This document shows, in pieces, positions 1-29,897 of a stretch of DNA of 64,000 nucleotides. The notes below the pieces were generated by a model. It did no database searches. It saw only the letters and a program-made list of their open reading frames with translations, and was not told where the DNA came from. Each line of letters opens with the position of its first letter. Position 1 is the stretch's first letter. This DNA is from Naegleria gruberi (Eukaryota), in NCBI GenBank assembly GCA_000004985.1, contig GG738883.1, one strand, 5' to 3'. A program made the position numbers and the translations under genes.

Positions 1-294
1 GACCCAAAAACCCAAACCCAAACCCAAACCCAAACCCAAACCCAAACCCAAACCCAAACCCAAACCCAAACCCAAACCCAAACCCAAACCCAAACCCAAA
101 CCCAAACCCAAACCCAAACCCAAACCCAAACCCAAACCCAAACCCAAACCCAAACCCAAACCCAAACCCAAACCCAAACCCAAACCCAAACCCAAACCCA
201 AACCCAAACCCAAACCCAAACCCAAACCCAAACCCAAACCCAAACCCAAACCCAAACCCAAACCCAAACCCAAACCCAAACCCAAACCCAAACC
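1..294. repeat. Terminal telomeric hexamer array (CCCAAA)n, i.e. G-strand TTTGGG; about 48 near-perfect units
   Basis: Seen directly: uninterrupted cccaaa units from base 1, slightly irregular first unit (gacccaaaaaccc). C-rich strand 5' at the window edge is the orientation expected for a left chromosome end. Ends in the junction aacccacgaccaaagccagacccaacccg before an N gap. Confidence 0.9.
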
Positions 295-378
295 CACGAC
301 CAAAGCCAGACCCAACCCGNNNNNNNNNNNNNNNNNNNNNNNNNNNNNNNNNNNNNNNNNNNNNNNNNNAAAAATAGT

Positions 379-1314
379 TTATTTGCTTGGTATGCGCACT
401 ATACGACCTTCAGCAATATTGACTTGTGTAGGAGTTTGTGTATTATAAAAACCATCCAGTAATTTTATCATTGTGGTGGTACTTGTTTGATTACTCTCAA
501 AAGATGCCTTATTCTTCATAGCAGCTTCGTAAATCATATCAGCCTTTTCTGTATCACTGTCTGTAGTTTCATAGTAAATAATAGATTCATGTGAAATCTT
601 ATTAACATTCTTTTTAAGGTCATTATCGACAACAGAACGTAGCTCCGTCACCACTTTCTTTTCAGCATCCCCATGTGGTTCCTTAACCAAACCGTTTTCC
701 CTTATTTTCGAAAAAATTTTTGTACCTGTCGCTGCTGCAAGAGTCGTACCAGAAACTGCCAGAACAAATTCAGAAGCACCTGTTACAGCTACACCAAACA
801 ATTGACCCCCTGGAACGACAAAAAGCAAACCACCTACAACAAAACCAGTTGCAGCAATAATTGCCATCCATTTTGCAACATGATTGGCGTTTGCTACTGT
901 TTTCTTCGCTTCATTGTACGCTTTAATATGTTCTGCTTGGGAATCGCCAACATCGCTTAGGAAATCATCACAGTTTGTAATAAATGTTTGCATATCTCTG
1001 GAAATATCACCCAAACTGGTCAGTATTTGTCCATTACATTCGTTATTCATCTTCACTACAATTTTATATCTATTCTTATTGTAATGATCGATAATTGAAG
1101 TACAGAAACGCGTCCCAGTATCTGACAATTCTGCAGTGCATCGTGTGATAGTATAGGCAGATTTAAGAATAATAGCTAGCTTTTCTTTTTGCTCTTTGCT
1201 GAGTTTTGAGTACTTTTGCAAGCTATCAATGGCTGTGTTCATATCACCAATATTTTTAGCTGCTGTTTTAATAACAAAATCAAACGCTACACTGTACAAT
1301 TTATCCTTGTCCAT
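379..1314 (-). CDS. Hypothetical 311-aa helical protein with a central ~48-aa Gly/Ala-rich hydrophobic hairpin (alpha-helical pore-forming-toxin-like / membrane-insertion architecture)
   Basis: ATG confirmed at 1314-1312 (cat on plus). Long uninterrupted ORF. Amphipathic charged helices flank WMAIIAATGFVVGGLLFVVPGGQLFGVAVTGASEFVLAVSGTTLAAATGT. No signal peptide. Product call is inference from composition only. Confidence 0.55.
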   Translation of the reverse strand: MDKDKLYSVAFDFVIKTAAKNIGDMNTAIDSLQKYSKLSKEQKEKLAIILKSAYTITRCTAELSDTGTRFCTSIIDHYNKNRYKIVVKMNNECNGQILTSLGDISRDMQTFITNCDDFLSDVGDSQAEHIKAYNEAKKTVANANHVAKWMAIIAATGFVVGGLLFVVPGGQLFGVAVTGASEFVLAVSGTTLAAATGTKIFSKIRENGLVKEPHGDAEKKVVTELRSVVDNDLKKNVNKISHESIIYYETTDSDTEKADMIYEAAMKNKASFESNQTSTTTMIKLLDGFYNTQTPTQVNIAEGRIVRIPSK

Positions 1315-1575
1315 TTTTTTATAAATATTTTACAACAATCCAAACCTCCAAACACACAATAAAACACGCTAAAGCNNNNNNNNNNNNNNNNNNNNNNNNN
1401 NNNNNNNNNNNNNNNNNNNNNNNNNNNNNNNNNNNNNNNNNNNNNNNNNNNNNNNNNNNNNNNNNNNNNNNNNNNNNNNNNNNNNNNNNNNNNNNNNNNN
1501 NNNNNNNNNNNNNNNNNNNNNNNNNNNNNNNNNNNNNNNNNNNNNNNNNNNNNNNNNNNNNNNNNNNNNNNNNNN

Positions 1576-2050
1576 CCAAACCAAACCCAAACCCAAACCC
1601 AAACCCAAACCCAAACCCAAACCCAAACCCAAACCCAAACCCAAACCCAAACCCAAACCCAAACCCAAACCCAACCCAAACCCAAACCCAACCCAAACCC
1701 AAACCCAAACCCAAACCCAAACCCAAACCCAACCCAAACCCAAACCCAAACCCAAACCCAAACCCAAACCCAAACCCAAACCCAAACCCAAACCCAAACC
1801 CAAACCCAAACCCAAACCCAAACCCAAACCCAAACCCAAACCCAAACCCAAACCCAAACCCAAACCCAAACCCAAACCCAAACCCAAACCCAAACCCAAA
1901 CCCAAACCCAAACCCAAACCCAAACCCAAACCCAAACCCAAACCCAAACCCAAACCCAAACCCAAACCCAAACCCAAACCCAAACCCAAACCCAAACCCA
2001 AACCCAAACCCAAACCCAAACCCAAACCCAAACCCAAACCCAAACCCAAA
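1576..2050. repeat. Second (internal) telomeric (CCCAAA)n tract, same orientation as the terminal tract, with a few CCCAA variant units
   Basis: Seen directly after the N gap ending at 1575. Variants cccaacccaaa near 1670-1730. Terminates in aacccacgactaaagtcagacccaacatttt, which matches the junction at 290-319 at 26 of 28 positions. Confidence 0.9.
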
Positions 2051-4980
2051 CCCACGACTAAAGTCAGACCCAACATTTTGACTTTTATTCATCTTAATTC
2101 ATTATCTCAACAAATACTCATTATAAATCAATATATTATATATCAATATACTCCAAATTGAATATATAATCATATAATAACATAATATTACATCATTATT
2201 ATGACTTATATAAGTTAATTTCATATAATAGATTAGACAATTAGAATATCAATGAAAACATTTCAAAATCATTTCAAATCAATATATCACCTTATAAATC
2301 ATGTTGATAACAATATATATCAATTTCACATACTTTGTTATCATATCAGGGAATTAACTATTCAACTTGTCAACTGACCTATACTAACATTGAAGATAGA
2401 AATCTGTACCACTACAATTCACTTCCAATACATCTATACATGATAATTAAATATATCTATATGATTCAGAAGATCATCCATATCATACATGGTACATGGC
2501 TTATCCACTTGATACCTACAGGGATGTGACAATGACATCTACTATACAGATCATCATATAATTGATACAGTACCTTGCTAATGATGAATAAACACCACTG
2601 TATCAGTCTCATGACAATTTGAACTCATTCAACATGTCAGGAGTGTAATCATGAGAATTATGAATATCAAGAAAATGAAATCATATTAATTTTAAAATCT
2701 TTCAATTATAATATCATATATAGATCAATTTAACATGGTATATCAATAATTGGTATTGAATTTCATATCANNNNNNNNNNNNNNNNNNNNNNNNNNNNNN
2801 NNNNNNNNNNNNNNNNNNNNNNNNNNNNNNNNNNNNNNNNNNNNNNNNNNNNNNNNNNNNNNNNNNNNNNNNNNNNNNNNNNNNNNNNNNNNNNNNNNNN
2901 NNNNNNNNNNNNNNNNNNNNNNNNNNNNNNNNNNNNNNNNNNNNNNNNNNNNNNNNNNNNNNNNNNNNNNNNNNNNNNNNNNNNNNNNNNNNNNNNNNNN
3001 NNNNNNNNNNNNNNNNNNNNNNNNNNNNNNNNNNNNNNNNNNNNNNNNNNNNNNNNNNNNNNNNNNNNNNNNNNNNNNNNNNNNNNNNNNNNNNNNNNNN
3101 NNNNNNNNNNNNNNNNNNNNNNNNNNNNNNNNNNNNNNNNNNNNNNNNNNNNNNNNNNNNNNNNNNNNNNNNNNNNNNNNNNNNNNNNNNNNNNNNNNNN
3201 NNNNNNNNNNNNNNNNNNNNNNNNNNNNNNNNNNNNNNNNNNNNNNNNNNNNNNNNNNNNNNNNNNNNNNNNNNNNNNNNNNNNNNNNNNNNNNNNNNNN
3301 NNNNNNNNNNNNNNNNNNNNNNNNNNNNNNNNNNNNNNNNNNNNNNNNNNNNNNNNNNNNNNNNNNNNNNNNNNNNNNNNNNNNNNNNNNNNNNNNNNNN
3401 NNNNNNNNNNNNNNNNNNNNNNNNNNNNNNNNNNNNNNNNNNNNNNNNNNNNNNNNNNNNNNNNNNNNNNNNNNNNNNNNNNNNNNNNNNNNNNNNNNNN
3501 NNNNNNNNNNNNNNNNNNNNNNNNNNNNNNNNNNNNNNNNNNNNNNNNNNNNNNNNNNNNNNNNNNNNNNNNNNNNNNNNNNNNNNNNNNNNNNNNNNNN
3601 NNNNNNNNNNNNNNNNNNNNNNNNNNNNNNNNNNNNNNNNNNNNNNNNNNNNNNNNNNNNNNNNNNNNNNNNNNNNNNNNNNNNNNNNNNNNNNNNNNNN
3701 NNNNNNNNNNNNNNNNNNNNNNNNNNNNNNNNNNNNNNNNNNNNNNNNNNNNNNNNNNNNNNNNNNNNNNNNNNNNNNNNNNNNNNNNNNNNNNNNNNNN
3801 NNNNNNNNNNNNNNNNNNNNNNNNNNNNNNNNNNNNNNNNNNNNNNNNNNNNNNNNNNNNNNNNNNNNNNNNNNNNNNNNNNNNNNNNNNNNNNNNNNNN
3901 NNNNNNNNNNNNNNNNNNNNNNNNNNNNNNNNNNNNNNNNNNNNNNNNNNNNNNNNNNNNNNNNNNNNNNNNNNNNNNNNNNNNNNNNNNNNNNNNNNNN
4001 NNNNNTATATATATGATAAATTCAATTATTTCAATTATATATCATAAATCATGATAATTAGACATGTATCAATCAGTGGAATTAAGTCATGTAAGATATT
4101 CATCCTTCAATAACCAATATTGTCATTTTCACACAAGTTGACTTCCTACAGTCTGAATATGGATCCAATAATGATTATTTCAATTATATATGATTATATT
4201 TGACATTTACTACAATATCTATGAGTTAATATAAATGGGAGAGTATTTCCATAGTATGGCTCAATATCTTGGTCAATTAAGGTAGAACGAGTACAGTATA
4301 CTAAGGATATCATATGTTATACTTCCAACAATTCTACAAGGTAGATATCATCATAATACATCATATATATGAGATTGGTGATGATTCTAATAACATTCAT
4401 ATAATAGTACAATAAATGTTGAAAAGTTAATTTTTAGACATGTTGTAGTTTATTTAATATACCGATTCAACAAGATTAATTCATAATATCGTCTATTCAT
4501 ATATATATCTACAATATATCAAAAGTTTCATTCTGGCCCAACTTTGAAATTTTCAACTTTGTCAGACCCAAGGTAGGTTCAACCCATGGGGTCACTTTAG
4601 GACTCAATTATCTCGGGAACGGCGAATTAAAAAAATTAGTATTTTCTATCATTTCTTCCAAAACTCATATAGATTGATATTTGAGTGAATCATAACCCGG
4701 AACGTTCTCGTCGCAGAGATAATAGATATACTAGGAATTTTTGAGTTGACCATTTTTGATTATCTCAATAACTACGGGGAGTTTTTTCACGTGTATTACA
4801 GAATAGATATATTAATGTATTTAATAATACATATATAAGAACTGGATAGCCAATATTAGCCGTTCGTTTTATGTGATTAGGTTTTCGCCATACCCAAACC
4901 CAAACCCAACCATTAATCATTTAGCTGAATTGGGTCTTGCGTAGGTTTATTTTTTCTTAATATATATATATATTTGTAGA

Positions 4981-5556
4981 ATGAAAATAGCAACGTATTA
5001 TAGAACACTAGAAGAACTACTTGAGGACGAAAAACTTATTACTCAAAACATTCTCTTGACATGCTTATTCATTTGGCATCCAGATAATTTCGATCTTGAC
5101 TTTGCCCGAAAACGACTGTCAAGAGACTCCAAAAGTCTTCAAAATCATCACTACACTGCAATTGGTGGCTCTTTTAATAGAATGGTCAAACCTATCAGCA
5201 TCAAAAACTTCAAAGCTTTTTTAAAAGTTGTTCTTGAATTGGGTAATGAATATTTCGAACTTTATTCCGAAACATTTAGTAATGTTGAACCATTCGATCC
5301 AAGCTACGGTTATTGGTGGGCCAGCCAAAGTACTTCTGATCTTTTAAATTTATACAACAATCCGATTAGACCAATTCCGAACCACCCTAATGATTTTACT
5401 TGCATGTCAAAATATCGAACTTTAACTATTTTACCACAAATAATCAATAGTACAGAAGGATTATTTGAAGTATTATTCAAATTAATGAACAAATATTCCA
5501 CCGAAAACCTGATGTTTATTAAGGTTGATGTTAACATCTACTTGCGGATTTTTAAG
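4981..5556 (+). CDS. Hypothetical protein, exon 1 (ATG at 4981; gtaagt donor at 5557)
   Basis: ATG verified. ORF is in phase up to aag|gtaagtg at 5554-5563. Downstream read-through in the ORF track (RIFKVSVPCS...) is intron. Confidence 0.5.
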
Positions 5557-5601
5557 GTAAGTGTTCCTTGTTCAAATATATATATATATTTGCAAAAATA
5601 G

Positions 5602-5865
5602 ATTCTATATGTACTAGAAGAACTAAATGTTCTTCCTGAATGGAACAAAAAACTTGTAGTTATTCATGGCCCTTGGCATACTTTTAAAATGTGTTGTATT
5701 ATTGTTTGGAGATTGTATGCTGAGAACTTCTTGTTAAGAATTGTTGCAAGAATTTATCCAAAAGTTAATGCATATTTTAAACAATCACTACCTCTACAAT
5801 ATCTTGTTGATATTATCAACATCATAACTCTTGCGTTTAGATATGTGAATATTGAAATTGACTAA
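5602..5865 (+). CDS. Hypothetical protein, exon 2 (acceptor aaaaatag at 5594-5601; stop taa 5863-5865)
   Basis: Hand translation in phase 0 from the donor gives ILYVLEELNVLPEWNKKLVVIHGPWHTFKMCCIIVWRLYAENFLLRIVARIYPKVNAYFKQSLPLQYLVDIINIITLAFRYVNIEID then stop. No recognisable family. Confidence 0.45.
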   Translation: MLYVLEELNVLPEWNKKLVVIHGPWHTFKMCCIIVWRLYAENFLLRIVARIYPKVNAYFKQSLPLQYLVDIINIITLAFRYVNIEID

Positions 5866-5999
5866 AGTACCGAGTTAGGAAAGAACCTTCATGCACTACT
5901 AGAACTCTACCTTCCAGCTTTAAGAGATTTTTATTGTGCTCTCAGAACTAACGATTACTCAGTGTACAACAAATGCAAAGACGTACTTTTGTATTTGTT

Positions 6000-6048
6000 A
6001 TATTTCTCCAAAAGAAACAATAAAACAATCGTTGATAAACCAATGGGT
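6000..6048. repeat. Retroelement short repeat B2 (49 bp, identical to 6666-6714), about 490 bp beyond A2
   Basis: Exact 49-bp identity found by reading both regions. Its placement suggests the element boundary is near 5997-6000. Confidence 0.7.
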
Positions 6049-6536
6049 AGAAGCTCACTCAACATATTCTTCATCCAAAGGATGAGGTATGTTGCTCAGA
6101 AATGCTGCCTTTTAGGTCATTGACTTTATTCAGCATTGTCCCGAGTTAATAAAGTTGTTTACAAAATCGAGATTGAAGTAGAACAACTCCCCTATAAAAA
6201 ACCTGCATTGCAGGAAAAAATCGGTAAAAACTCCAATCCATTAAAGTTTTAAAAGGTGAATTGCTTGTAAAAAAATGCCTGGTAATTTCCATCAGAAATA
6301 TTTTTTGAAAAAATAAATCTGGCTTACTTTACGAGCATATTTCGAATTATTCAAATGATGTTAGTTAGAAATAAAAATTATTGTATCACAAGGTGATACT
6401 AATCCTGCATCCATAGAAGGATCACTTACCAAGATCGATCTAAAAGACAAAGAGGAAAAACACTCAAGGAGTGAAATACTAATTGAAGGAATTCAAGGAA
6501 TTCCTGAAGTTTCAAATAAGGGAACGGGTGGGTGGG

Positions 6537-6666
6537 TCGCCTTGCTTGGTGTTTGAACCATTTCAATATACTTAATTTTTTTGAGCATAAAATTATTTAT
6601 CAACTCAATTTTATTGTTTACAATTTGTCGAAATACTAACGTTACATCGTTCCTCGCAACTCTACA
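6537..6666. repeat. Retroelement direct repeat A2, immediately abutting repeat B1 (6666-6714)
   Basis: Same 130-bp unit as 10385-10514. Followed without gap by atatttctccaaaagaaacaataaaacaatcgttgataaaccaatgggt, which is repeated at 6000-6048. Confidence 0.85.
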
Positions 6667-6713
6667 TATTTCTCCAAAAGAAACAATAAAACAATCGTTG
6701 ATAAACCAATGGG

Positions 6714-7750
6714 TTAGTCCAGAGAAAATAAGGTGTCTGTGAAATTCTTGCCAGCAAGACCCTCAGATCGTAGATAAGGAAATAAACTGTTGGTTTTCTT
6801 ATGTCTTGCACCAACCATGAGATCTGAAGTAGAAACACCTTTTCTAAGTCCTTCTGTGATGGCTCCAATTCTAATGCTGTGCCCAGAAACTCTCACATCT
6901 TGGTCAACCATACCCACCGCATTCTTGAGTATCTTAGAAATATCATTTGAATCAAGGAATTTGTTGTTTTCGTAGGAAAACAAAGGAGAATCGTCATCTT
7001 TAAATTCACGAACCAAATCCATATACGAATTTAGTAGGGTTATTGGGCAAAGACTTGGATTCTTTGTATTCTTGTCAATAGTAATTGGTTTTTCAATAAG
7101 GAAGAAATCAGTTTTGTGACCACTGAGGTCAATTTTGATTTTTCCATTCTTGAGAACCTTGATATAGGACCATTTTAAGCGCGCAACCTCACCAGGTCTT
7201 GCAAATAGTCTGAAACCAACCACTAGAATAGCAGAAGTGAGTCGAAAAGTGAAATTGTCCACTTTGTCTTTGCACTTCACATAATCAGTCAAATGTTTGA
7301 CTGTAATTGGATCTCTTTGAAGAGAAACTTTATCCGAGAGTGTATAAAGTTTCAGTACACCTTTTTTAACCTTAGAGTAGGAGGCAGAGATGGTAATGGG
7401 TTTGCCATCAAGGTTAGCAAAGAATTGAATTGCTGCTTGCACAGTTTTTGCTTTGTATCCTTGAATATTTATCAAGAGGTATGAGATGTAATATTCAATA
7501 GCTATAGGATCATCAATGGTGAGATCAAACACATTGATAAACCAGAGAAAACCACCATAAATTCTATTATAAGTTCTGAATGTTTTCTCAGCTATTGATG
7601 AAAGGATACTAAGATCCCTTATTGCTTGAACAACTTGCCATGCACTTGAACAACCAGGAAATTGGAAGTCTCGAACTTGTCTTGCAACTCTGACAAGGGC
7701 GTTATTATAAGCATCTTTCGGGAAACAGGTATTATCCTTTCTGATATCTT
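6714..7750 (-). CDS. Retroelement tyrosine recombinase (approximate span; C-terminal third of the 6714-8603 ORF)
   Basis: C-terminal region carries the YR catalytic pattern: ...ARPGEVARL... (Arg), ...HSIRIGAITEG... (H-x-x-R), ...SLFPYLRS (Tyr). The upstream two thirds of this ORF is an R/S-rich alternate frame of the RNase H region and is probably not translated in this frame. The 5' boundary is uncertain. Confidence 0.6.
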
Positions 7751-8599
7751 TAGCAAGACTGGAAACCATATCGAAGAGGGCCAGTCTGGAACTACAAATG
7801 TCGCTTTCGCTTCTGATTTTATGCAATGAACTAGAGCTTGAGATATCAGACCCAGAGGAGGAACACAATAACTCATCAGATTTTGTTCCCATGGATTCAA
7901 GAATGTGTCGTTCTCTATCCATGAGTTGAATTGAATTGTTGTGGTTGATTCCGATGTCGCGAATCTGTCCACATGGTGCTCTCCAAATTCTGTCTGAACT
8001 AGATGCAGTAGTTCTTGAGATGATTTCCATTCTGTTAAGCGACTCAGTCTGTCTGCTAGATTGTTCTCCTTTGAGGGAATGTAAATCACCTTTGAAATCC
8101 ACCATTTTCTTCTCATCAAGATCTTGTAGAGGTCTCTGGCGATTTGAGAGAGTTCTTCTATGACTCCGTAACCTCTCCTTATATAGGAAATTGCTGTAAC
8201 ATTGTCGCCTCTGATTTCGAATGCTTGTCCAGGACCATAAAGGTTTAACCGATCTGCTTGTGTGAAGAAAATGAGGAGTGTTTTTAACTCTTTCACATTG
8301 ATGTGTTCTGAGGAAGTGAATCTTCCAATTGTAATGGTTGACTCTGCGTGAATTCCATAGCCTGTTGGGCAGGCATCTGAATTCACTCGAATTGGGTTCG
8401 TTGAATTCAGTTCGAAGGGAATTCCACTGTTTTTCTGAATCAGATCTTTCAAAATATTTAGATCCTTCGCTGCACCTCTGAATATTCTCATTGATGCGTG
8501 CCAAGATTTGTCGTTTACTACTTTCACCATATCCTTCCGAAGACGAGCAAGAAAGGGAGCAAAGTAATGGTTTGCAGTACCCTGTATTCGTTGTTCCAA
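7619..8599 (-). CDS. Retroelement pol, RNase H plus conserved post-RNase-H domain typical of DIRS-group elements
   Basis: RNase H catalytic pattern DACPTGYG ... NVKELK ... IRGDNVTAISY ... ENNLADRLSR, then NPWEQNLMSYCVPPLGLISQALVHCI...FVVPDWPSSIWFPVLL. Confidence 0.65.
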   Translation of the reverse strand: MEQRIQGTANHYFAPFLARLRKDMVKVVNDKSWHASMRIFRGAAKDLNILKDLIQKNSGIPFELNSTNPIRVNSDACPTGYGIHAESTITIGRFTSSEHINVKELKTLLIFFTQADRLNLYGPGQAFEIRGDNVTAISYIRRGYGVIEELSQIARDLYKILMRRKWWISKVIYIPSKENNLADRLSRLTEWKSSQELLHLVQTEFGEHHVDRFATSESTTTIQFNSWIENDTFLNPWEQNLMSYCVPPLGLISQALVHCIKSEAKATFVVPDWPSSIWFPVLLKISERIIPVSRKMLIITPLSELQDKFETSNFLVVQVHGKLFKQ

Positions 8600-8860
8600 C
8601 CAAATTTTTTTAGAGTCGAGCCAATTTTATAAATATTTTAATATTATTTATTCTTCTGATGATATTTCGTCGCCACTTTATTCATCACTTCCACTTTGTG
8701 GATTCTGATGCATCATCTTCCTCATATTCTGATCCGCTGGTAGTATCGTCTTGGTAAATTCTTGGAAAGCTTTTGGAGTTTATGGTTTGATGGTTGGTAT
8801 TTCATCATCAACAGGAAGAAGATTCCAGTCAAAGAAACTTCCTGATGATGGGTTGTTGTA

Positions 8861-9514
8861 TTAATTTTCTAGCCAACTGCCATGTTGTTCAGTTGCTTCC
8901 AAATACCAGCTTGTGATTNNNNNNNNNNNNNNNNNNNNNNNNNNNNNNNNNNNNNNNNNNNNNNNNNNGGAAGTAACCTTCTTCAGGTCTATCTTTGTTG
9001 CCCACATTCCCTTCTGAACAAATTTCAAACATCTTTGAATGTTGTCCATCTTGAAGGAACTGTCCTTTATTCCTAAATTGACCTTCCTTAGGTCTAGAAT
9101 AAAGCGAAATTGATCCGAACCCTTCTTGGGTACAATGTTTATTGGGTTCAATATTGTTGAACTGTTTCCAATCTCTATTACATTGGAACTCAGCATCTCT
9201 TGGATTTCCTGATCCATCCAAGAGGTTTCCTTTGGAGAGAAATTCTTCCTTTGTTTGAATTCTTTCCAAAGGGTGGGATTTGAGTAGATTGGGACTCCAT
9301 TTCGAATCCAATCCACTATAAATGGGTTGAAGTTGTAACTCTCCCACTGAGGTACAAACTTGTTGAGACGGCAACCTACCAAGTCAGAGGTCTTGTTTGA
9401 AAGCTCCTCCACCATTGTTATTGTACTTTGGCTTGGAATCTCCTGACTTTTGAAAAGAGGAACCACTCTTGTTGTAATTGTTGAATGGCTTTGAATAGCT
9501 GTTAGGGATGCCAC
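8861..9514 (-). CDS. Retroelement pol, reverse-transcriptase N-terminal region (interrupted by N gap 8919-8968)
   Basis: Motif PKKGSDQFRFILDLRKVN (RT domain 1-2, F..DLR..N) seen in the translation. The gap explains the truncation. Confidence 0.6.
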   Translation of the reverse strand: MASLTAIQSHSTITTRVVPLFKSQEIPSQSTITMVEELSNKTSDLVGCRLNKFVPQWESYNFNPFIVDWIRNGVPIYSNPTLWKEFKQRKNFSPKETSWMDQEIQEMLSSNVIEIGNSSTILNPINIVPKKGSDQFRFILDLRKVNLGIKDSSFKMDNIQRCLKFVQKGMWATKIDLKKVTSXXXXXXXXXXXXXXXXXITSWYLEATEQHGSWLEN

Positions 9515-10409
9515 CTTGATGAGAGGACGGTTTTTGAAACTTTTCTTTCATCTTTAGAGGTTTTTGGATCTTGCTGGTAATGGCATGCTTTACTACAGAT
9601 TTCTCTCTCTTCTTTTGGCGAGCTTTTTCTGTTATATCAGCAAACGTGTTGCTTTGGATGAAGGGTTGAATAAATTGGTTCGCAACATCAAAGTTACTTT
9701 CGAATAAACCTTCTTCTAAAAAGATTTTCTCAACCTCAGAGAGAAGAAACACCAACTCAGTGATTTCAATGATGTTGGTTACATTTAATGGATGGCTCAG
9801 AGCAAACTGAAGTAATTTAGACTTCAAATGTAACATTTCCATCATCTTTTGCAAGCCTTTGGATTGAATTTCTTGCAGACGAGGATAGTTACGAGAGTTG
9901 TGAATGACAGATTCAAATCGAGCCATCAAAACTTGAACTCTATTCAACAACGCCTCATTGGAAGAGTAATGACGAAGTGTTTTGGCTGAGACAAAACTTA
10001 AGACATCTCCATCGGATAGTCTATCACCAACTTCGTAGTTACGTCTAATCTCCTTGATAGTAGTTAGACCCCAATGTTTACCAGTGAAATCCTCATCAGC
10101 GGATTCCTCATCAGGGTCTTCATCAAGTTGATTAGCTTGTTGCAGAACAGGAGGAACAGCTTCGAGATGCTTTATTCTCTCACCCAAAGAAGTGATGGCG
10201 TTGAGAATAGCATCAAGGTTCTTTTCAGAACCAGCTTGGTTGTTATCCAAGGTTTTGGATGTTGGGTCAACCACAGAGGGGAGTGAAGCTGAGCTACCAT
10301 TGTCAGTTACTGGGATGTAACCTGACTTGTAGGTAGAAGTTGAGGATTTGCTTGCTGAAACTCTTTGACGAATGTTGGAAATATTCGCCTTGCTTGGTGT
10401 TTGAACCAT
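9384..10409 (-). CDS. Retroelement ORF1, gag-like (coiled-coil-rich; C-terminal basic/Gly-rich tail)
   Basis: First ATG in the ORF is cat at 10407-10409 (MVQTPSKANISN...), inside repeat A1 and 150 nt downstream of the non-ATG start reported by the ORF track. Protein is helical with a KSGDSKPKYNNNGGGAFKQDL tail. Confidence 0.55.
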   Translation of the reverse strand: MVQTPSKANISNIRQRVSASKSSTSTYKSGYIPVTDNGSSASLPSVVDPTSKTLDNNQAGSEKNLDAILNAITSLGERIKHLEAVPPVLQQANQLDEDPDEESADEDFTGKHWGLTTIKEIRRNYEVGDRLSDGDVLSFVSAKTLRHYSSNEALLNRVQVLMARFESVIHNSRNYPRLQEIQSKGLQKMMEMLHLKSKLLQFALSHPLNVTNIIEITELVFLLSEVEKIFLEEGLFESNFDVANQFIQPFIQSNTFADITEKARQKKREKSVVKHAITSKIQKPLKMKEKFQKPSSHQGGIPNSYSKPFNNYNKSGSSFQKSGDSKPKYNNNGGGAFKQDL

Positions 10410-10514
10410 TTCAATATACTTAATTTTTTTGAGCATAAAATTATTTATCAACTCAATTTTATTGTTTACAATTTGTCGAAATACTAACGTTGCATCGTTC
10501 CTCGCAACTCTACA
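10385..10514. repeat. Retroelement terminal direct repeat A1 (about 130 bp); contains the gag ATG
   Basis: Near-identical to 6537-6666 (tcgccttgcttggtgtttgaaccatttcaatatacttaatttttttgagcataaaattatttatcaactcaattttattgtttacaatttgtcgaaatactaacgt[t/g][a/g]catcgttcctcgcaactctaca). Confidence 0.85.
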
Positions 10515-10568
10515 ATAACTAGCAAACATACATTGTACACAAATGCAGAGTTGTTTCAAACGTTAAAT

Positions 10569-11126
10569 ATGGAAATATGGAAACTCAAATATCCAAGATT
10601 ATTTGAACTTTTTAGAAAAAACCTTTCTATGTTTTCAGAAGAAATAGGTGAAATAGCTTTTAGTATGATGGCTTCTAATCAAAATCTTTACACTGAGAGT
10701 GCAATGTTGAAAAATAAGCGTAGACATTTCAAAATTCTTAACAAAATCCATGAGGTGAATAATGTTTTCAACGAAAGTAATACTTTTAAAGACGAATCAG
10801 TGGATAAACAAGGATTTCACTATGGCAGTACAGAGGTGCAAGAGTGTATTTCTGAGTTGAAATTAATAATTGAGGAAACAAATAATGGCTCATTAAGAAG
10901 ACAAAATTATGAAACAAGGAAGAAAAGATATGTGTTGCTTCCTTCATTGGTAATGATTGACCAAAAAACGGTGAAAAAGTGTTATCTTGAAAACAATGAT
11001 CAAGAATTAACCAAGGCTCTTAAAGTATTAAGAAGGGGTTTTCTTGGTAAAAAAACAATTGATGAAACCAAAGAGAAGGTTATTAAGTGTCTTTATAAGC
11101 ACAACATTATGACTCCCCAAGAATAA
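10569..11126 (+). CDS. Hypothetical protein (first ATG 10569; frame is open back into the retroelement repeat from 10488)
   Basis: ORF-track start at 10533 is TTG. MEIWKLKYPRLFELF... from the first ATG. No family recognised. Confidence 0.4.
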   Translation: MEIWKLKYPRLFELFRKNLSMFSEEIGEIAFSMMASNQNLYTESAMLKNKRRHFKILNKIHEVNNVFNESNTFKDESVDKQGFHYGSTEVQECISELKLIIEETNNGSLRRQNYETRKKRYVLLPSLVMIDQKTVKKCYLENNDQELTKALKVLRRGFLGKKTIDETKEKVIKCLYKHNIMTPQE

Positions 11127-12084
11127 AAATATTTATTTTCAAATATATATATATATTTAATTGCTTTCTATTGATGATCATTTTAATAAATTTATTGGAA
11201 ATAACATATAATACTAATATATACACCTCTTTATTACTACCACAAACAGCCTTAATTCCTTAAATACAAAATGATAATCCTAAGCAAGTCTTGAAATTAA
11301 TCAAGTCATATATTAAATGTATTGATTGTTGTAATGAACTGGAATATACTTGTTAGGCCTGTTTGGAAGGGTCAAGAATAACACACGGAACCTTTTTTCC
11401 TTGATATCTCAATGATACGTTTCGGATCTTCAATAGCTAGCTGTATTGAATAAAAGTCATTAGAAAAGGACTCAACCTGACAAACCTTCTTTGTTTTTGT
11501 ATCAAAGCATCTCGTTTCTTACTCACTTCATAGTTGCCAGCAATACGTTGTCCTGAATTTAAGGGTTCATTCAGATCAAGAAGATCACATAATTGACACG
11601 TATCATAATACGTAATGGATTCTATTGAACTTGTTCTGCGGGTGTTAAAGGATTAGCAAGATTTGTTGCCGTAAAGAAGGCACCTCCAAATTTTCTGTGA
11701 ACTGAGCTTGTAAAATGCTGTTGATTGTACTGCCCTTTAGCAATGAATTCTGCCTTTTTGGAGAAGGATGGCCATGATTCCAGTTCTTTATCATAGCAAC
11801 AAATTTGAGAGAGTTGCCTTTCAATCTTGATTTAAAATTGGAGATTTTGATTTCATGCCCTGATCAGATTCGGATTCAGATAATAACTAAGCTGGTACAC
11901 CAAAGTCTAAAATCAAGATATCATCCAATTATCGCACTTGACTATTCAACATGGCGATCAAGTAAATGTTAACGTTGAAATTTGTGCTCTCAGATCTTAC
12001 ATGTTTGCACATCAATTTTAAAGAAACCAATAACAGCTTGACGGATCAGAAAAGCAATTATTATTCAAGATTATTTTCGAATGT

Positions 12085-12865: not shown

Positions 12866-15214
12866 ATTTATTGGGTAATGATGAATAATTTAATAGTAAG
12901 TAGCTTGTTGTTGTTTCATTTCTGATGAATTAGATGAGAGGAAGTGAACGCTTTTAGTTGGAAGCAGGAAGTGAGTGAGTATATTTTTTTTCAGATGGAT
13001 TTAGTCGGAATTTCGGAACTTGGATTGACGACAACTCGACTTGGAATTTTATTAGAGTTGTGTGTAAATCATTAACAGTTTTTCGTTAATGATTGATGAC
13101 AATTATGAGGCAAATTTTATTGTGAAATATTGACGATTTTTCGCTAATGATTAACGTTTTTTGATAACAATTTTTCAATAATATTTAACGTTAAACATTA
13201 TTGAAAAATCGTCAATAATTTACGATAAAATTTAGCGTTAATTTACCTGTAAATTTGAAATTTTTTTCCCAACAAACGTTTACGTTTTTATTTCGTTTTT
13301 TTTGTTAATTATTAACGAAAATCAATAAAGTTTGACTTGAATTTTTGTTAACAAAAGTGCGAAAAAATTAATGAAAAAATAAAAATATTTACGTGGAAAT
13401 ATTTTAGCGGGATATACGAAATAAACCCGTATAAAAAATTATTCAGTAATATTCGGTCGCATCTGTAAGAAATCAACAAGAACTTGGAAAAATATTTCAA
13501 AAATATTGGATCAACATCAGGTACATCACGACTCTGTTGATTCTTGGAGTAGTTTCACATCTATTAACTCCAAGAATTTCACCACATCATCTCATCATCA
13601 TTTAAATAATAGTATTACTAGTAATTTTTGGAATTTAATCCTTCATCATGATTTGGAAATAATTTTATTATTTGGAAAAATTCAAGTTGGTACATCATCA
13701 TCGGAACAACTACCAACCATCATCATTGTTATTTATCATCATTATAATAGTAATATTTGTGGAAATAAATCTGATAATAGTAATATTTTAGTGAAATTTA
13801 ATATGGCCATCGTCATCACTGCCAGATTCACATGATAATTTGGAAAACTTTTAATCTAGTATTGTTCAGCATGGTCGATTCCATCAGGTAAAATCACTTC
13901 CGAACATTTCCCTATTGTTTATCATGATGGTAGGTACATGTATATTTTCAACATGTACATGGACCATATCTCAACATGTACTTCACCAACTTGGAAAATG
14001 TCTTTCATCACTACTATTCAAATACATAATAAACAATATATTTATTATCAGATTTTCATCATTTTGTGTTTTTGTCAACTTCGGGTTATTCATGGTCACC
14101 AATCATGATTCATGCCAAAAGTACACAGTCAATCTTCTTGAAACATTAATAAACTTTTATTAGTACTATTGTAGATGTACTATATCAATTATTTCGTCTT
14201 GTTTCGTTGAAATCATGAAGATTTGGATTTTTCTGTTTTTAATTAAATTTCATATCACCTACACCATATTTGTTGATGTAAACTAGACTAGTTACATGTA
14301 AATAATCCATTGTTGATTCTCTAATCATGTTTTATTGTGTTTTTGTGTATTTAGGTTTTTGAAATCTTGCAAATTATTCTGAGGTTGTTCTTCATATAAA
14401 TATGATTTCTCACTTCATGATATGAGGAGGGATTGATATCATGATTGTTTGGAAGTGTTGTACAAATTTTGGACACTCCCTGAATTGAAATCAGGAAGAA
14501 AGAGTCTAATCTTTAGCACCATATAAAATATGACTTTTGACGATGGTTTTGGTCTATTGGTTGTTTCCTCAAATATTGGAAAAGGAGAATGATAAACACC
14601 TTTTCTCAACATATTCTTTATTTATGGAAGTTATGACCATAAGAATGAATTTCGCATTACCAAACCATGCGAATTTATTTAGTATGAAATTTATTCGCAT
14701 AAATTTTATTCGAATATAATTGCCTGGAACAGGATCAATACTATCCTGTCTGCCACAATGACAAGTTCTTCCTGTAGACGATTATTGTAACAACAAGAAA
14801 TGTGAAATAAAACAATTTTTGTTTAATTGAAATTTTTTAAAACTCGTTTTTTCTCTTTTTCAGTGTTGAGTGTTTTCTGAGCATTCTCAAAACAACAATC
14901 CGAGATGAAATGAGTACTGGTTCACTTGTGTACTCACTTTCGAATCCTAGTATGAAAGGAATAGTGTGCTCATTTTAAAAAAACTCTCGAGAAAAAAATT
15001 TACTGGGCAATAAAAAGAGGTACTCAAACATCTTACAGTCATTTGTAGATTTTCAATAGGATTGGATAGTGGATTTGACTGTGTGGACAATCTTTCATTT
15101 TGGATTTACCTACCGGATATGTTATAAAAATCGTTTTGGGATCATAAATAGTGATTTTTTTGTTTATTGAAAGGTCACTCATTTCCTCTTTGCAATCCTA
15201 TTTAGTTGCATGAG

Positions 15215-29823: not shown

Positions 29824-29897
29824 AGAAATGGAAGCAGCGATAGATCAGTTGGTTAGATCGTAAGCCTAACACGCTTAAGGTCGCGGGTTCAAGCCCC
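29824..29897 (+). tRNA. tRNA-Val (anticodon AAC)
   Basis: Folded by hand: acceptor gcagcga/tcgctgt (G1:U72 wobble), D stem gatc/gatc with agttggtta loop, anticodon stem taagc/gctta, loop ctAACac, T arm gcggg-ttcaagc-cccgc. A and B boxes are present. The anticodon arm (gcctaacacgc) is identical to the animal Val-AAC arm. Confidence 0.85.

What the first reader, a model, noticed from the sequence alone, without database searches (positions are those of the whole stretch)
5997..10514. Apparently intact tyrosine-recombinase retrotransposon with split direct repeats, about 6 kb from the telomere
Gene order is gag, RT, RNase H, the DIRS-specific post-RH domain and YR. The repeat structure is A1(10385-10514)-ORFs-B1(6666-6714)A2(6537-6666)...B2(6000-6048). 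This is the PAT/Ngaro-style split-direct-repeat layout rather than DIRS1-style inverted repeats.

Repeats are 99-100 percent identical and ORFs are open, apart from an N gap in RT, so the copy is young or active. The gag ATG lies inside A1.

The ~490 bp between A2 and B2 is not expected in the canonical model. It could be element-specific sequence or a nested fragment.
Basis: partly seen in the sequence, partly recalled or inferred. Interest (0 to 1): 0.55.

Follow-up and report, generated by a model that had tools for sequence, protein, structure and literature searches.

The report
Damaged tyrosine-recombinase retrotransposon in Naegleria gruberi
This is a recently inserted but reverse-transcriptase-damaged jumping gene of the DIRS/PAT type in the amoeba Naegleria gruberi. 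The odd extra sequence at its tail is shared with a relative in another amoeba genus, so it belongs to the element.

Summary
The repeats are real. A is 130 nt (129/130 identical; 10385-10514 and 6537-6666). B is 49 nt (49/49; 6666-6714 and 6000-6048). The element lies on the minus strand in the order A1, gag-like ORF, RT, RNase H, Dam-like MT, YR, B1A2, 488-nt spacer, B2. It has no inverted repeats.

The window is Naegleria gruberi: an NCBI predicted protein of that species is encoded exactly here.

"Apparently intact" is not supported. About 476 nt of the RT core (motif A to thumb) is missing. In its place are the 50-N gap and 343 nt (8576-8918) with no RT similarity and stops in every frame. 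A 1-nt deletion shifts the frame just before the gap.

The spacer is not a nested fragment. The only relative I could fetch with both ends, in Willaertia magna, has the same layout with a 340-nt spacer. In both species the spacer begins with four C3 tracts directly after A2. This is the only such motif outside the telomere arrays in 64 kb.

DIRS-order elements were already reported in N. gruberi (Piednoël 2011), but their termini were not described. By structure this is a PAT-like split-direct-repeat element of a heterolobosean clade. It is of modest interest. The C-tract is the one new lead.

The parts
10385..10514 (-). A1, the 5' terminal repeat (130 nt). It contains the gag-frame ATG at 10409-10407.
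   Evidence: 129/130 identical to 6537-6666. Its start GTAGAGTT is also found after the B-like sequence in relative L002.
9387..10409 (-). ORF1, gag-like (341 aa from the ATG in A1). It has no zinc knuckle and no Pfam match.
   Evidence: Open frame. No Pfam family. 67.5% nucleotide identity to ORF1 plus the start of pol in L007. Weak BLASTP match to ORF1 of L004, E 1e-4. The 'gag' label rests on position and these relatives.
8969..9547 (-). N-terminal part of reverse transcriptase, up to motif A (KIDLKK). It overlaps the end of ORF1 in another frame. A 1-nt deletion lies about 12 nt before the gap.
   Evidence: 64-66% identity to RT of L007 and P0006. Frameshift shown.
8919..8968 (.). Assembly gap of 50 N, true size unknown.
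8576..8918 (-). 343 nt that are not RT. There are stops in all frames. In element orientation it ends with AATAAA-type signals and an A7 run (8607-8613). It stands where 476 nt of RT core should be.
   Evidence: No similarity to the RT of P0001, P0006, P0007, P0009 or P0010. Sharp nucleotide breakpoint at 8575/8576 against L007. Unique in the window.
7622..8575 (-). End of the RT thumb, RNase H and the Dam-like methyltransferase-like domain (pol C-terminal part; stop at 7619-7621).
   Evidence: 78% identity to L007 pol and 60% to P0001. Pfam Dam PF05869, E 3.7e-6, 27.2 bits against a cut-off of 28.1. RNase H residues D84, E113, D141 and D192 are invariant in alignment A1.
6717..7829 (-). Tyrosine recombinase ORF. 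It overlaps the end of pol in another frame. Its stop TAA is at 6716-6714, and the last base of the stop is the first base of B1.
   Evidence: Pfam Phage_integrase, E 3.6e-5, below cut-off. ARPGE, HKTD and GHSxRIG are invariant across all nine aligned relatives. The ARH/GRW and tyrosine positions are kept in the window and in the relatives that extend that far. Residues 28-309 of NCBI 'predicted protein [Naegleria gruberi]' P0005 are an exact substring.
6666..6714 (-). B1, the internal copy of the 3' terminal repeat (49 nt).
   Evidence: 49/49 identical to 6000-6048. Its start ACCCATTGG is conserved as ACCCATTAG in L002.
6537..6666 (-). A2, the internal copy of A. The B1|A2 junction (…GAAATAT|GTAGAGTT…) is the predicted circle junction.
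   Evidence: The same junction AT|GTAGAGTT is in L002.
6520..6536 (-). C-tract CCCACCCACCCGTTCCC, the first 17 nt of the spacer, directly after A2. It is a G4-type motif on the complementary strand.
   Evidence: It is the only 4xC3 motif on either strand of the window outside the telomere arrays. The Willaertia element has CCCTCCCTCCCTTACCC at the same place, the only such motif in that 23-kb locus.
6049..6536 (-). Spacer X (488 nt) between A2 and B2. It is non-coding and belongs to the element.
   Evidence: No ORF. No similarity to the rest of the element or window. A 340-nt spacer occupies the same position in Willaertia.
6000..6048 (-). B2, the 3' terminal repeat and end of the element.
   Evidence: The flanking ORF reads in frame across the element if one shared base is kept.
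4981..5999 (+). Left flank: an orphan host ORF with a 45-nt intron (5557-5601) and an in-frame TAA at 5863-5865. The element interrupts it.
   Evidence: No Pfam match and no homologue.
10515..11126 (+). Right flank: the continuation of the same orphan ORF.
   Evidence: Left flank + A + right flank is in frame (…KDVLLYLLITSKHTLY…). This has a one-in-three chance of being coincidence.

Best explanation
Identity. This is one copy of a tyrosine-recombinase (DIRS-order) retrotransposon in the Naegleria gruberi reference genome. It lies on the minus strand at 6000-10514. It belongs to a clade found so far in heteroloboseans (Naegleria, Willaertia) and in environmental contigs.

Layout. The order is A1, gag-like ORF, RT-RNase H-MT-like pol, YR, B1A2, spacer, B2. 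This is the split-direct-repeat (PAT-like) arrangement with a methyltransferase-like domain. A long unique spacer between A2 and B2 begins with a C3-tract.

Likely mechanism. These steps are inferred from the DIRS/PAT model, not shown here.
1. An RNA running from A1 to B2 is reverse-transcribed.
2. The internal B1|A2 junction serves as the template that restores and joins the two ends into a circle. The circle's B2|A1 junction equals B1|A2.
3. The YR recombines that junction with the target without a target-site duplication.

The sequence shows that the two ends and the internal junction share a single base. The interrupted host ORF is restored in frame when one base is kept. The repeats differ at 1 of 179 positions, so the insertion is recent.

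State of this copy. As assembled it cannot make its own RT. The core from motif A to the thumb is absent, 343 nt of unrelated sequence sit in its place, and there is a frameshift. It is therefore either a defective copy, possibly mobilised in trans, or a copy disrupted after insertion.
For: Organism: P0005 (NCBI, N. gruberi) is encoded exactly here.

Domains:
- Pfam Dam and Phage_integrase hits.
- RT, RNase H and MT homology to P0001, P0006 and L007.
- YR catalytic motifs conserved.

Repeats. No ITR here. The ITR control L009 is positive.

Same layout in Willaertia magna L003:
- A 9820-9997 and 14180-14357, 99% identical.
- B 14137-14182 and 14698-14743, 100% identical.
- Spacer of 340 nt.
- pol contiguous; YR present.

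C-tract at the A2/spacer boundary in both species. B-start and the B|A junction are conserved in L002. RT defect. Host ORF continuity.

Literature:
- Model and ICR requirement, PMC7192593.
- No TSD and a short crossover, PMC3266345.
- SDR definition, PMC4157794, PMC8547959, PMC9210276.
- A short A2-B2 spacer in VIPER/SIRE, PMC6681497.
Against: - Only two loci with complete termini could be examined, so 'clade feature' rests on n = 2.
- No other copy of this family could be fetched from the N. gruberi genome, so no consensus could be built.
- The gap size is unknown, and the 343-nt segment sits at a contig end, where assembly chimeras occur.
- The host ORF has no homologues and carries an in-frame stop. 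The boundary argument from reading-frame continuity is therefore weak (one in three by chance).
- The Pfam scores for MT and YR are just below the curated cut-offs.
- No phylogeny with named DIRS1 or PAT references was made. A published similarity test called the N. gruberi elements DIRS1-like (PMC3266345).
Confidence: 0.75

Rival explanations
1. The copy is intact and potentially active. The missing RT core is hidden in the gap, and the 343 nt next to it are an assembly artefact or lie outside the true path.
For: All other coding parts are open: gag, RT N-terminus, RNase H-MT and YR. The repeats are 99-100% identical. The defects cluster at the two contig ends flanking the gap, where read quality is lowest. 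A 50-N gap may be a placeholder.
Against: The 343 nt are contiguous with the RNase H sequence in the same contig, and the breakpoint is sharp. They are clean sequence resembling an mRNA 3' end, not low-quality noise. There is a separate 1-nt frameshift on the other side of the gap.
Confidence: 0.2
2. The 488-nt spacer is a later nested insertion into a canonical A2B2 junction, for example a small repeat with a 5-bp target duplication.
For: ACCCA occurs at both edges of the spacer: GGCG-ACCCA-CCCACC… and …GCTTCT-ACCCA-TTGG. A canonical Ngaro/PAT element has A2 directly followed by B2 (PMC8547959).
Against: The Willaertia relative has a spacer at the same place, beginning with the same kind of C-tract. 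The ACCCA match is part of that C-tract. The spacer has no other copy in the window. VIPER also has unique sequence between A2 and B2 (PMC6681497).
Confidence: 0.05
3. The locus is two units in tandem: a full unit A-ORFs-B followed by a short non-autonomous unit A-X-B. This would resemble SIRE next to VIPER, produced by recombination of a circle into a resident short unit rather than by one element.
For: The sequence parses exactly as [A1-ORFs-B1][A2-X-B2]. In T. cruzi the A2-30 bp-B2 region is the dispersed element SIRE (PMC6681497).
Against: The same order is seen in a second genus, so it is the standard genomic form. X has no similarity to the internal sequence. Under the standard model, B1A2 must be internal for end restoration (PMC7192593 for the analogous ICR).
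Confidence: 0.1
4. It is a DIRS1-type element with inverted terminal repeats and an internal complementary region, as implied by the published assignment of N. gruberi sequences to the DIRS1-like superfamily.
For: Piednoël et al. assigned the N. gruberi sequences to DIRS1-like by TBLASTX against their re-annotated Repbase set (PMC3266345). The pol has an MT-like domain. More distant pol relatives such as L009 are ITR-type.
Against: No inverted repeat involves the element ends in N. gruberi or in Willaertia. The same tool finds 175-nt ITRs in L009.
Confidence: 0.02

Closest known systems
PAT-like elements (PAT1, Toc, kangaroo) of the DIRS group
   Same: They share the gag, RT-RNase H-MT and YR set with overlapping ORFs. 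They share split direct repeats in which A is at the 5' end and B1, A2, B2 at the 3' end, and they lack inverted repeats (PMC4157794, PMC3266345). These features were tested here.
   Different: Here a long unique spacer (488 nt; 340 nt in Willaertia) separates A2 from B2 and starts with a C3-tract. The gag has no zinc finger. The host is a heterolobosean. Phylogenetic placement next to PAT references was not tested.
DIRS1-like elements (Dictyostelium DIRS-1 and relatives)
   Same: The pol architecture includes the MT-like domain. ORFs overlap. Integration is expected without target duplication at a very short crossover sequence. N. gruberi sequences were assigned here by similarity (PMC3266345).
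   Different: The defining inverted terminal repeats and internal complementary regions are absent. The internal B1A2 junction plays the part of the ICR.
VIPER/SIRE of trypanosomatids
   Same: It also occurs in Discoba and has split direct repeats A1…B1-A2-B2. About 30 bp of unique sequence lie between A2 and B2, and that A2-B2 region also occurs as the short element SIRE (PMC6681497).
   Different: The literature describes VIPER as lacking the MT domain (PMC3266345). From my own knowledge, not checked here, its YR lies before RT/RNase H. The spacer here is 10-15 times longer.
Ngaro elements
   Same: Same A1-[ORFs]-B1A2B2 repeat logic and a YR (PMC8547959, PMC9210276).
   Different: Ngaro lacks the MT-like domain and usually lacks ORF overlaps (PMC3266345). 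Here both are present.

Membership tests
DIRS order (tyrosine-recombinase retrotransposons) | Reverse transcriptase and RNase H related to Ty3-type RT | tested here: met
   RT N-terminus and thumb-RNase H match P0001, P0006 and L007, which carry RVT_1. The RT core itself is missing from this copy.
DIRS order (tyrosine-recombinase retrotransposons) | Tyrosine recombinase instead of a DDE integrase, and no protease | tested here: met
   Phage_integrase hit at E 3.6e-5. ARPGE, HKTD and GHSxRIG are invariant across the aligned relatives, and the catalytic tyrosine is present in the window. No integrase or protease family was found in any ORF.
DIRS order (tyrosine-recombinase retrotransposons) | Insertion without target-site duplication | tested here: inconclusive
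   The ends share one base with the internal junction. The host ORF is in frame after removing the element and keeping one base. No empty site was available. An imperfect 20-nt similarity in the flanks is not adjacent to the ends.
DIRS group sensu Szitenberg (DIRS1-like + PAT) | Methyltransferase-like domain after RNase H | tested here: met
   Pfam Dam PF05869, E 3.7e-6, 27.2 bits against a cut-off of 28.1. The same family is recorded for P0004, the Willaertia gene and L007 pol. The NPPW-type motif reads CVPPL, in line with the view that DIRS MT domains are inactive (PMC4738411).
DIRS1-like superfamily | Inverted terminal repeats plus internal complementary regions | tested here: not met
   No inverted repeat involves the termini. 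The positive control L009 shows 175-nt arms at 95%.
PAT-like superfamily | Split direct repeats A1 … B1 A2 B2 with B1A2 internal, downstream of the ORFs | tested here: met
   The same is seen in Willaertia. The deviation is a 488-nt or 340-nt spacer between A2 and B2.
PAT-like superfamily | Pol groups with PAT reference elements in phylogeny | not tested
   No named PAT or DIRS1 reference sequences were available. The representatives library carries no names. A published similarity test favoured DIRS1-like for N. gruberi (PMC3266345).
Ngaro | No MT domain; ORFs usually not overlapping | tested here: not met
   The MT-like domain is present. The gag/pol and pol/YR ORFs overlap.
VIPER | No MT domain (PMC3266345); YR placed before RT/RNase H (my own knowledge, not checked here) | tested here: not met
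   The order here is gag, RT-RNase H-MT, YR.

The most novel reading that the evidence does not exclude
The conserved C3-tract directly after A2 may be a functional cis-element of these split-direct-repeat retrotransposons. It could be the place where minus-strand cDNA synthesis starts, analogous in position to a primer-binding site just after an LTR. Alternatively it could be a G-quadruplex signal on the cDNA strand. Either would bear on the unanswered question of how DIRS-order elements prime reverse transcription (PMC7192593 states that no primer is known).
Probability: 0.12. Interest if true: 0.6.

Novelty: new variant of a known kind. Interest (0 to 1): 0.35.

Why it matters
Tyrosine-recombinase retrotransposons are rare. 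Their replication is understood mostly from one Dictyostelium element.

The N. gruberi copies had been reported only as corrupted pol hits called DIRS1-like. This locus and its Willaertia counterpart show that the heterolobosean clade combines a DIRS-type pol (with an MT-like domain) with PAT-type split direct repeats. That supports the view that terminal architecture and pol phylogeny are decoupled.

The conserved spacer and its C-tract give a concrete, testable candidate for a cis-acting replication signal.

For genome annotation, the N. gruberi gene model P0005 is a chimera of the pol end and the YR of this element.

Tried and rejected
- Other copies in the window: none.
- N. gruberi DNA for the other annotated YR genes (P0005, P0157, P0159) and for the gag ORF: not on record. 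No family consensus could be built.
- Metagenome scan: only two 1.7-kb contigs without termini.
- L004, L007, L008 and L010 end before the 3' repeats, or are truncated in YR.
- The N. fowleri locus L005/L006 has pol but no repeats.
- Host ORF: no Pfam family and no homologue among 5.8 billion proteins. The empty site could not be verified.
- RT remnants in 8576-8918: none, even at E 50 with word size 2.
- Similarity of the spacer or the 343-nt segment to anything else in the window: none.
- Global alignment of the N. gruberi and Willaertia 3' regions is uninformative beyond the motifs.
- RNA folding of the spacer gives z -2.96 in N. gruberi but -0.02 in Willaertia, so there is no consistent structure. 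Hairpins just before B2 exist in both species but are not significant.
- No internal complement to the C-tract.
- Rfam: nothing above chance.
- tRNA: one tRNA-Val at 29834, unrelated.
- Naming of distant pol relatives through cluster look-ups gave no DIRS1 or PAT references, so no phylogeny was attempted.
- The nested-insertion idea (ACCCA duplication) was rejected on the Willaertia evidence.


Full report
**What is in the sequence**

- A is 10385-10514 and 6537-6666, 130 nt. There is a single mismatch (10492 G against 6644 A).
- B is 6000-6048 and 6666-6714, 49 of 49 identical.
- B1 and A2 abut and share one base (6666). Neither repeat extends into its neighbours.
- No further copy of any part of the element occurs in the 64-kb window.
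- No inverted repeat involves the ends.

Read on the minus strand, the order is as follows:
- A1;
- an ORF of 341 codons from an ATG inside A1 (10409-10407);
- a second frame from 9547 that runs into the N run (8919-8968);
- a frame from 8575 to 7622;
- an overlapping frame ending at 6717, whose stop codon overlaps the first base of B1;
- then B1A2, 488 nt, and B2.

**Organism**

The NCBI protein 'predicted protein [Naegleria gruberi]' (P0005) is a spliced gene model. Its first 27 residues are an exact substring of the pol frame. Its remaining 282 residues are an exact substring of the YR frame of this window. The window is therefore the end of a N. gruberi scaffold.

(CCCAAA)n arrays lie at 8-315 and 1576-2054.

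**Protein content**

- Pfam gives Dam (PF05869, E 3.7e-6) in the pol C-terminal part and Phage_integrase (E 3.6e-5) in the last ORF. Both are just under the curated cut-offs.
- The pol part is 60-78% identical to environmental relatives that carry RVT_1: P0001, and the pol of contig L007.
- A profile search of 1.84 billion representatives found 4657 homologues, but only 20 at E <= 1e-30.
- The named close relatives are from Willaertia magna and Naegleria fowleri.
- In the YR, ARPGE, HKTD and GHSxRIG are invariant across nine relatives. The ARH/GRW and tyrosine positions are kept in the window.
- The RNase H residues D, E, D, D are invariant in alignment A1.
- ORF1 has no Pfam family. It is called gag by position and by similarity to ORF1 of L007 and, weakly, of L004.

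**The copy is not intact as assembled**

- The closest relative with a complete pol (L007) aligns at the nucleotide level in two blocks. L007 526-1412 matches window 9872-8969. L007 1889-3604 matches window 8575-6860.
- The 476 nt in between have no counterpart. They encode RT from GYFH after motif A, through YIDD, to the thumb.
- In their place are 50 N and 343 nt (8576-8918). These have stops in every frame. They show no similarity to any of five related RTs, even at very permissive settings.
- The breakpoint at 8575/8576 is sharp.
- Twelve bases before the gap, the window lacks one base relative to L007. This turns KIDLKKGYFH into KIDLKKVTS.
- In element orientation the 343 nt look like the tail of a messenger. 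A short open stretch ends in two stops, then comes AT-rich sequence with AATAAA, and then an A7 run near the breakpoint.

It could be a template switch onto a host mRNA, the end of a nested retroposon whose remainder lies in the gap, or an assembly chimera.

**The spacer belongs to the element**

Willaertia magna contig JBEGDK010000002.1 (locus L003) carries a relative with pol 40% identical to P0006 over its whole length. It also has a recognisable, damaged YR. Its repeats are:
- A at 9820-9997 and 14180-14357 (99% identical);
- B at 14137-14182 and 14698-14743 (100% identical);
- B1 directly before A2;
- 340 nt between A2 and B2.

This is the same layout as in N. gruberi, with no inverted repeats.

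The first bases of the spacer are CCCTCCCTCCCTTACCC in Willaertia and CCCACCCACCCGTTCCC in N. gruberi. A scan for four C3 tracts on both strands finds this site and nothing else in the 23-kb Willaertia locus. In the 64-kb window it finds this site and the telomere arrays only.

In a third relative (L002, 65% pol identity), the contig ends just after the YR. It still shows a B-like start (ACCCATTAG) and the junction AT|GTAGAGTT, as in N. gruberi.

The idea that the spacer is a nested insertion flanked by an ACCCA duplication is therefore rejected. The ACCCA match is part of the C-tract.

A more distant relative (L009, about 35% identity) has 175-nt inverted terminal repeats. This shows that the tool would have found such repeats here.

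**Boundaries and insertion**

The flanks are two parts of an orphan ORF on the plus strand.
- Left part: 4981-5999, with a 45-nt intron and an in-frame TAA at 5863.
- Right part: 10515-11126.

Left flank plus one A plus right flank reads through in frame (…KDVLLYLLITSKHTLY…). This fits recombination at a 1-3-nt crossover without duplication, as described for DIRS elements (PMC3266345). Frame continuity alone has a one-in-three chance, and the ORF has no homologue.

**How it most likely works**

These steps are inferred from the DIRS-1 work (PMC7192593) and from the split-repeat descriptions (PMC4157794, PMC8547959, PMC9210276). They are not shown here.
1. A sub-genomic RNA is copied into cDNA.
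2. The internal B1|A2 junction supplies the missing ends and the circle junction.
3. The YR integrates the circle.

The one mismatch in 179 repeat positions indicates a recent insertion. Because RT is defective, this copy would depend on RT from another copy. DIRS-1 RT can act in trans (PMC7192593).

N. gruberi encodes at least two further YR genes of this clade, at 85% and 51% identity to this one.

**Comparison with what is known**

Piednoël et al. (PMC3266345) found seven DIRS-order sequences in six families in N. gruberi. They judged them too corrupted for phylogeny and assigned them to DIRS1-like by similarity. Termini were not described.

By the structure-based scheme (PMC4157794), an MT-bearing element with split direct repeats is PAT-like. 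It fails the DIRS1-like test (no ITR or ICR). It fails the Ngaro and VIPER tests (MT present).

Unique sequence between A2 and B2 has a precedent in VIPER/SIRE, at about 30 bp (PMC6681497). From memory, not checked here, TOC1 also has such sequence. The spacer is thus a difference of degree.

The C-tract at its start is, as far as the searched literature goes, undescribed. Its function is unknown. It has no partner inside the element, and the spacer shows no consistent RNA structure.

**Verdict**

This is a real split-direct-repeat YR retrotransposon of a heterolobosean clade. It was recently inserted about 4-6 kb from a telomere-like array. As assembled, its RT is defective.

Its claim of intactness does not. 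Its open question about the spacer is resolved in favour of element-specific sequence. Interest is modest.

Noticed in passing
window 1-2054: There are two (CCCAAA)n arrays (8-315 and 1576-2054). They are separated by N gaps and about 1 kb that carries a long minus-strand ORF (about 370-1320). This suggests a TTTGGG-type telomere for N. gruberi, for which a 2013 survey said no information existed (PMC3622300). The doubled array may be a scaffolding artefact.
   Followed up: partly
window 2001-4000: The 2-kb composition bin 2001-4000 shows only about 10% G+C, though it includes the start of the 1235-N gap. The low-GC stretch lies between the inner telomere-like array (ending at 2054) and that gap (2771-4005).
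   Followed up: no
window 4981-5999 and 10515-11126: The interrupted host ORF is an orphan. It has no Pfam family and no homologue in 5.8 billion proteins. It carries an in-frame TAA at 5863-5865.
   Followed up: yes
window 5960-5980 and 10531-10550: An imperfect 20-nt direct repeat lies in the two flanks (CAGTGTACAACAAATGCAAAG / CATTGTACACAAATGCAGAG). The copies sit 19 and 16 nt from the element ends. Only 18 of 2977 random window pairs score as high. Its meaning is unknown.
   Followed up: partly
window 6717-8626 (gene model P0005): The public N. gruberi protein P0005 is a chimeric gene model. It splices the last 27 codons of the element's pol to its YR ORF.
   Followed up: yes
L003 9820-14743 (Willaertia magna JBEGDK010000002.1): The repeats of this SDR element are 99-100% identical, but its gag and YR frames are broken and the YR HxxR histidine is replaced. 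The copy may be defective and mobilised in trans, or the assembly may have indel errors. The element sits about 100 nt upstream of a Glyco_transf_22 gene, far from the contig ends.
   Followed up: partly
L003 14663-14685 and window 6069-6094: A hairpin lies shortly upstream of B2 in both species. In Willaertia it is a 9-bp stem plus extension (TTAATTATC/GATAATTAA). In N. gruberi it is a 6-bp stem (TCATCC/GGATGA). Neither is significant against shuffles. A 3' hairpin was once proposed as a primer for DIRS-1 (PMC7192593).
   Followed up: partly
L005 8695-11833 and L006 (Naegleria fowleri): The same degenerate DIRS-order pol locus, without terminal repeats, appears both in the N. fowleri assembly (L005) and in a Logan run contig whose organism was not given (L006). 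It looks like an old, fixed remnant.
   Followed up: partly
L009 9108-13606 (GCA_977066275.1): This more distant relative has 175-nt inverted terminal repeats (95% complementary) and a 39-nt perfect internal complementary pair, so it is a true DIRS1-type element. An internal 300-nt exact duplication lies at 10100-10399 / 10955-11254.
   Followed up: no
L007 3604-3740 and L008 2420-2556: In two metagenome samples, the closest intact-pol relative loses homology inside the YR, after RIGAT. It continues into unrelated sequence with a new ATG-led ORF. This looks like a 3'-truncated copy.
   Followed up: partly
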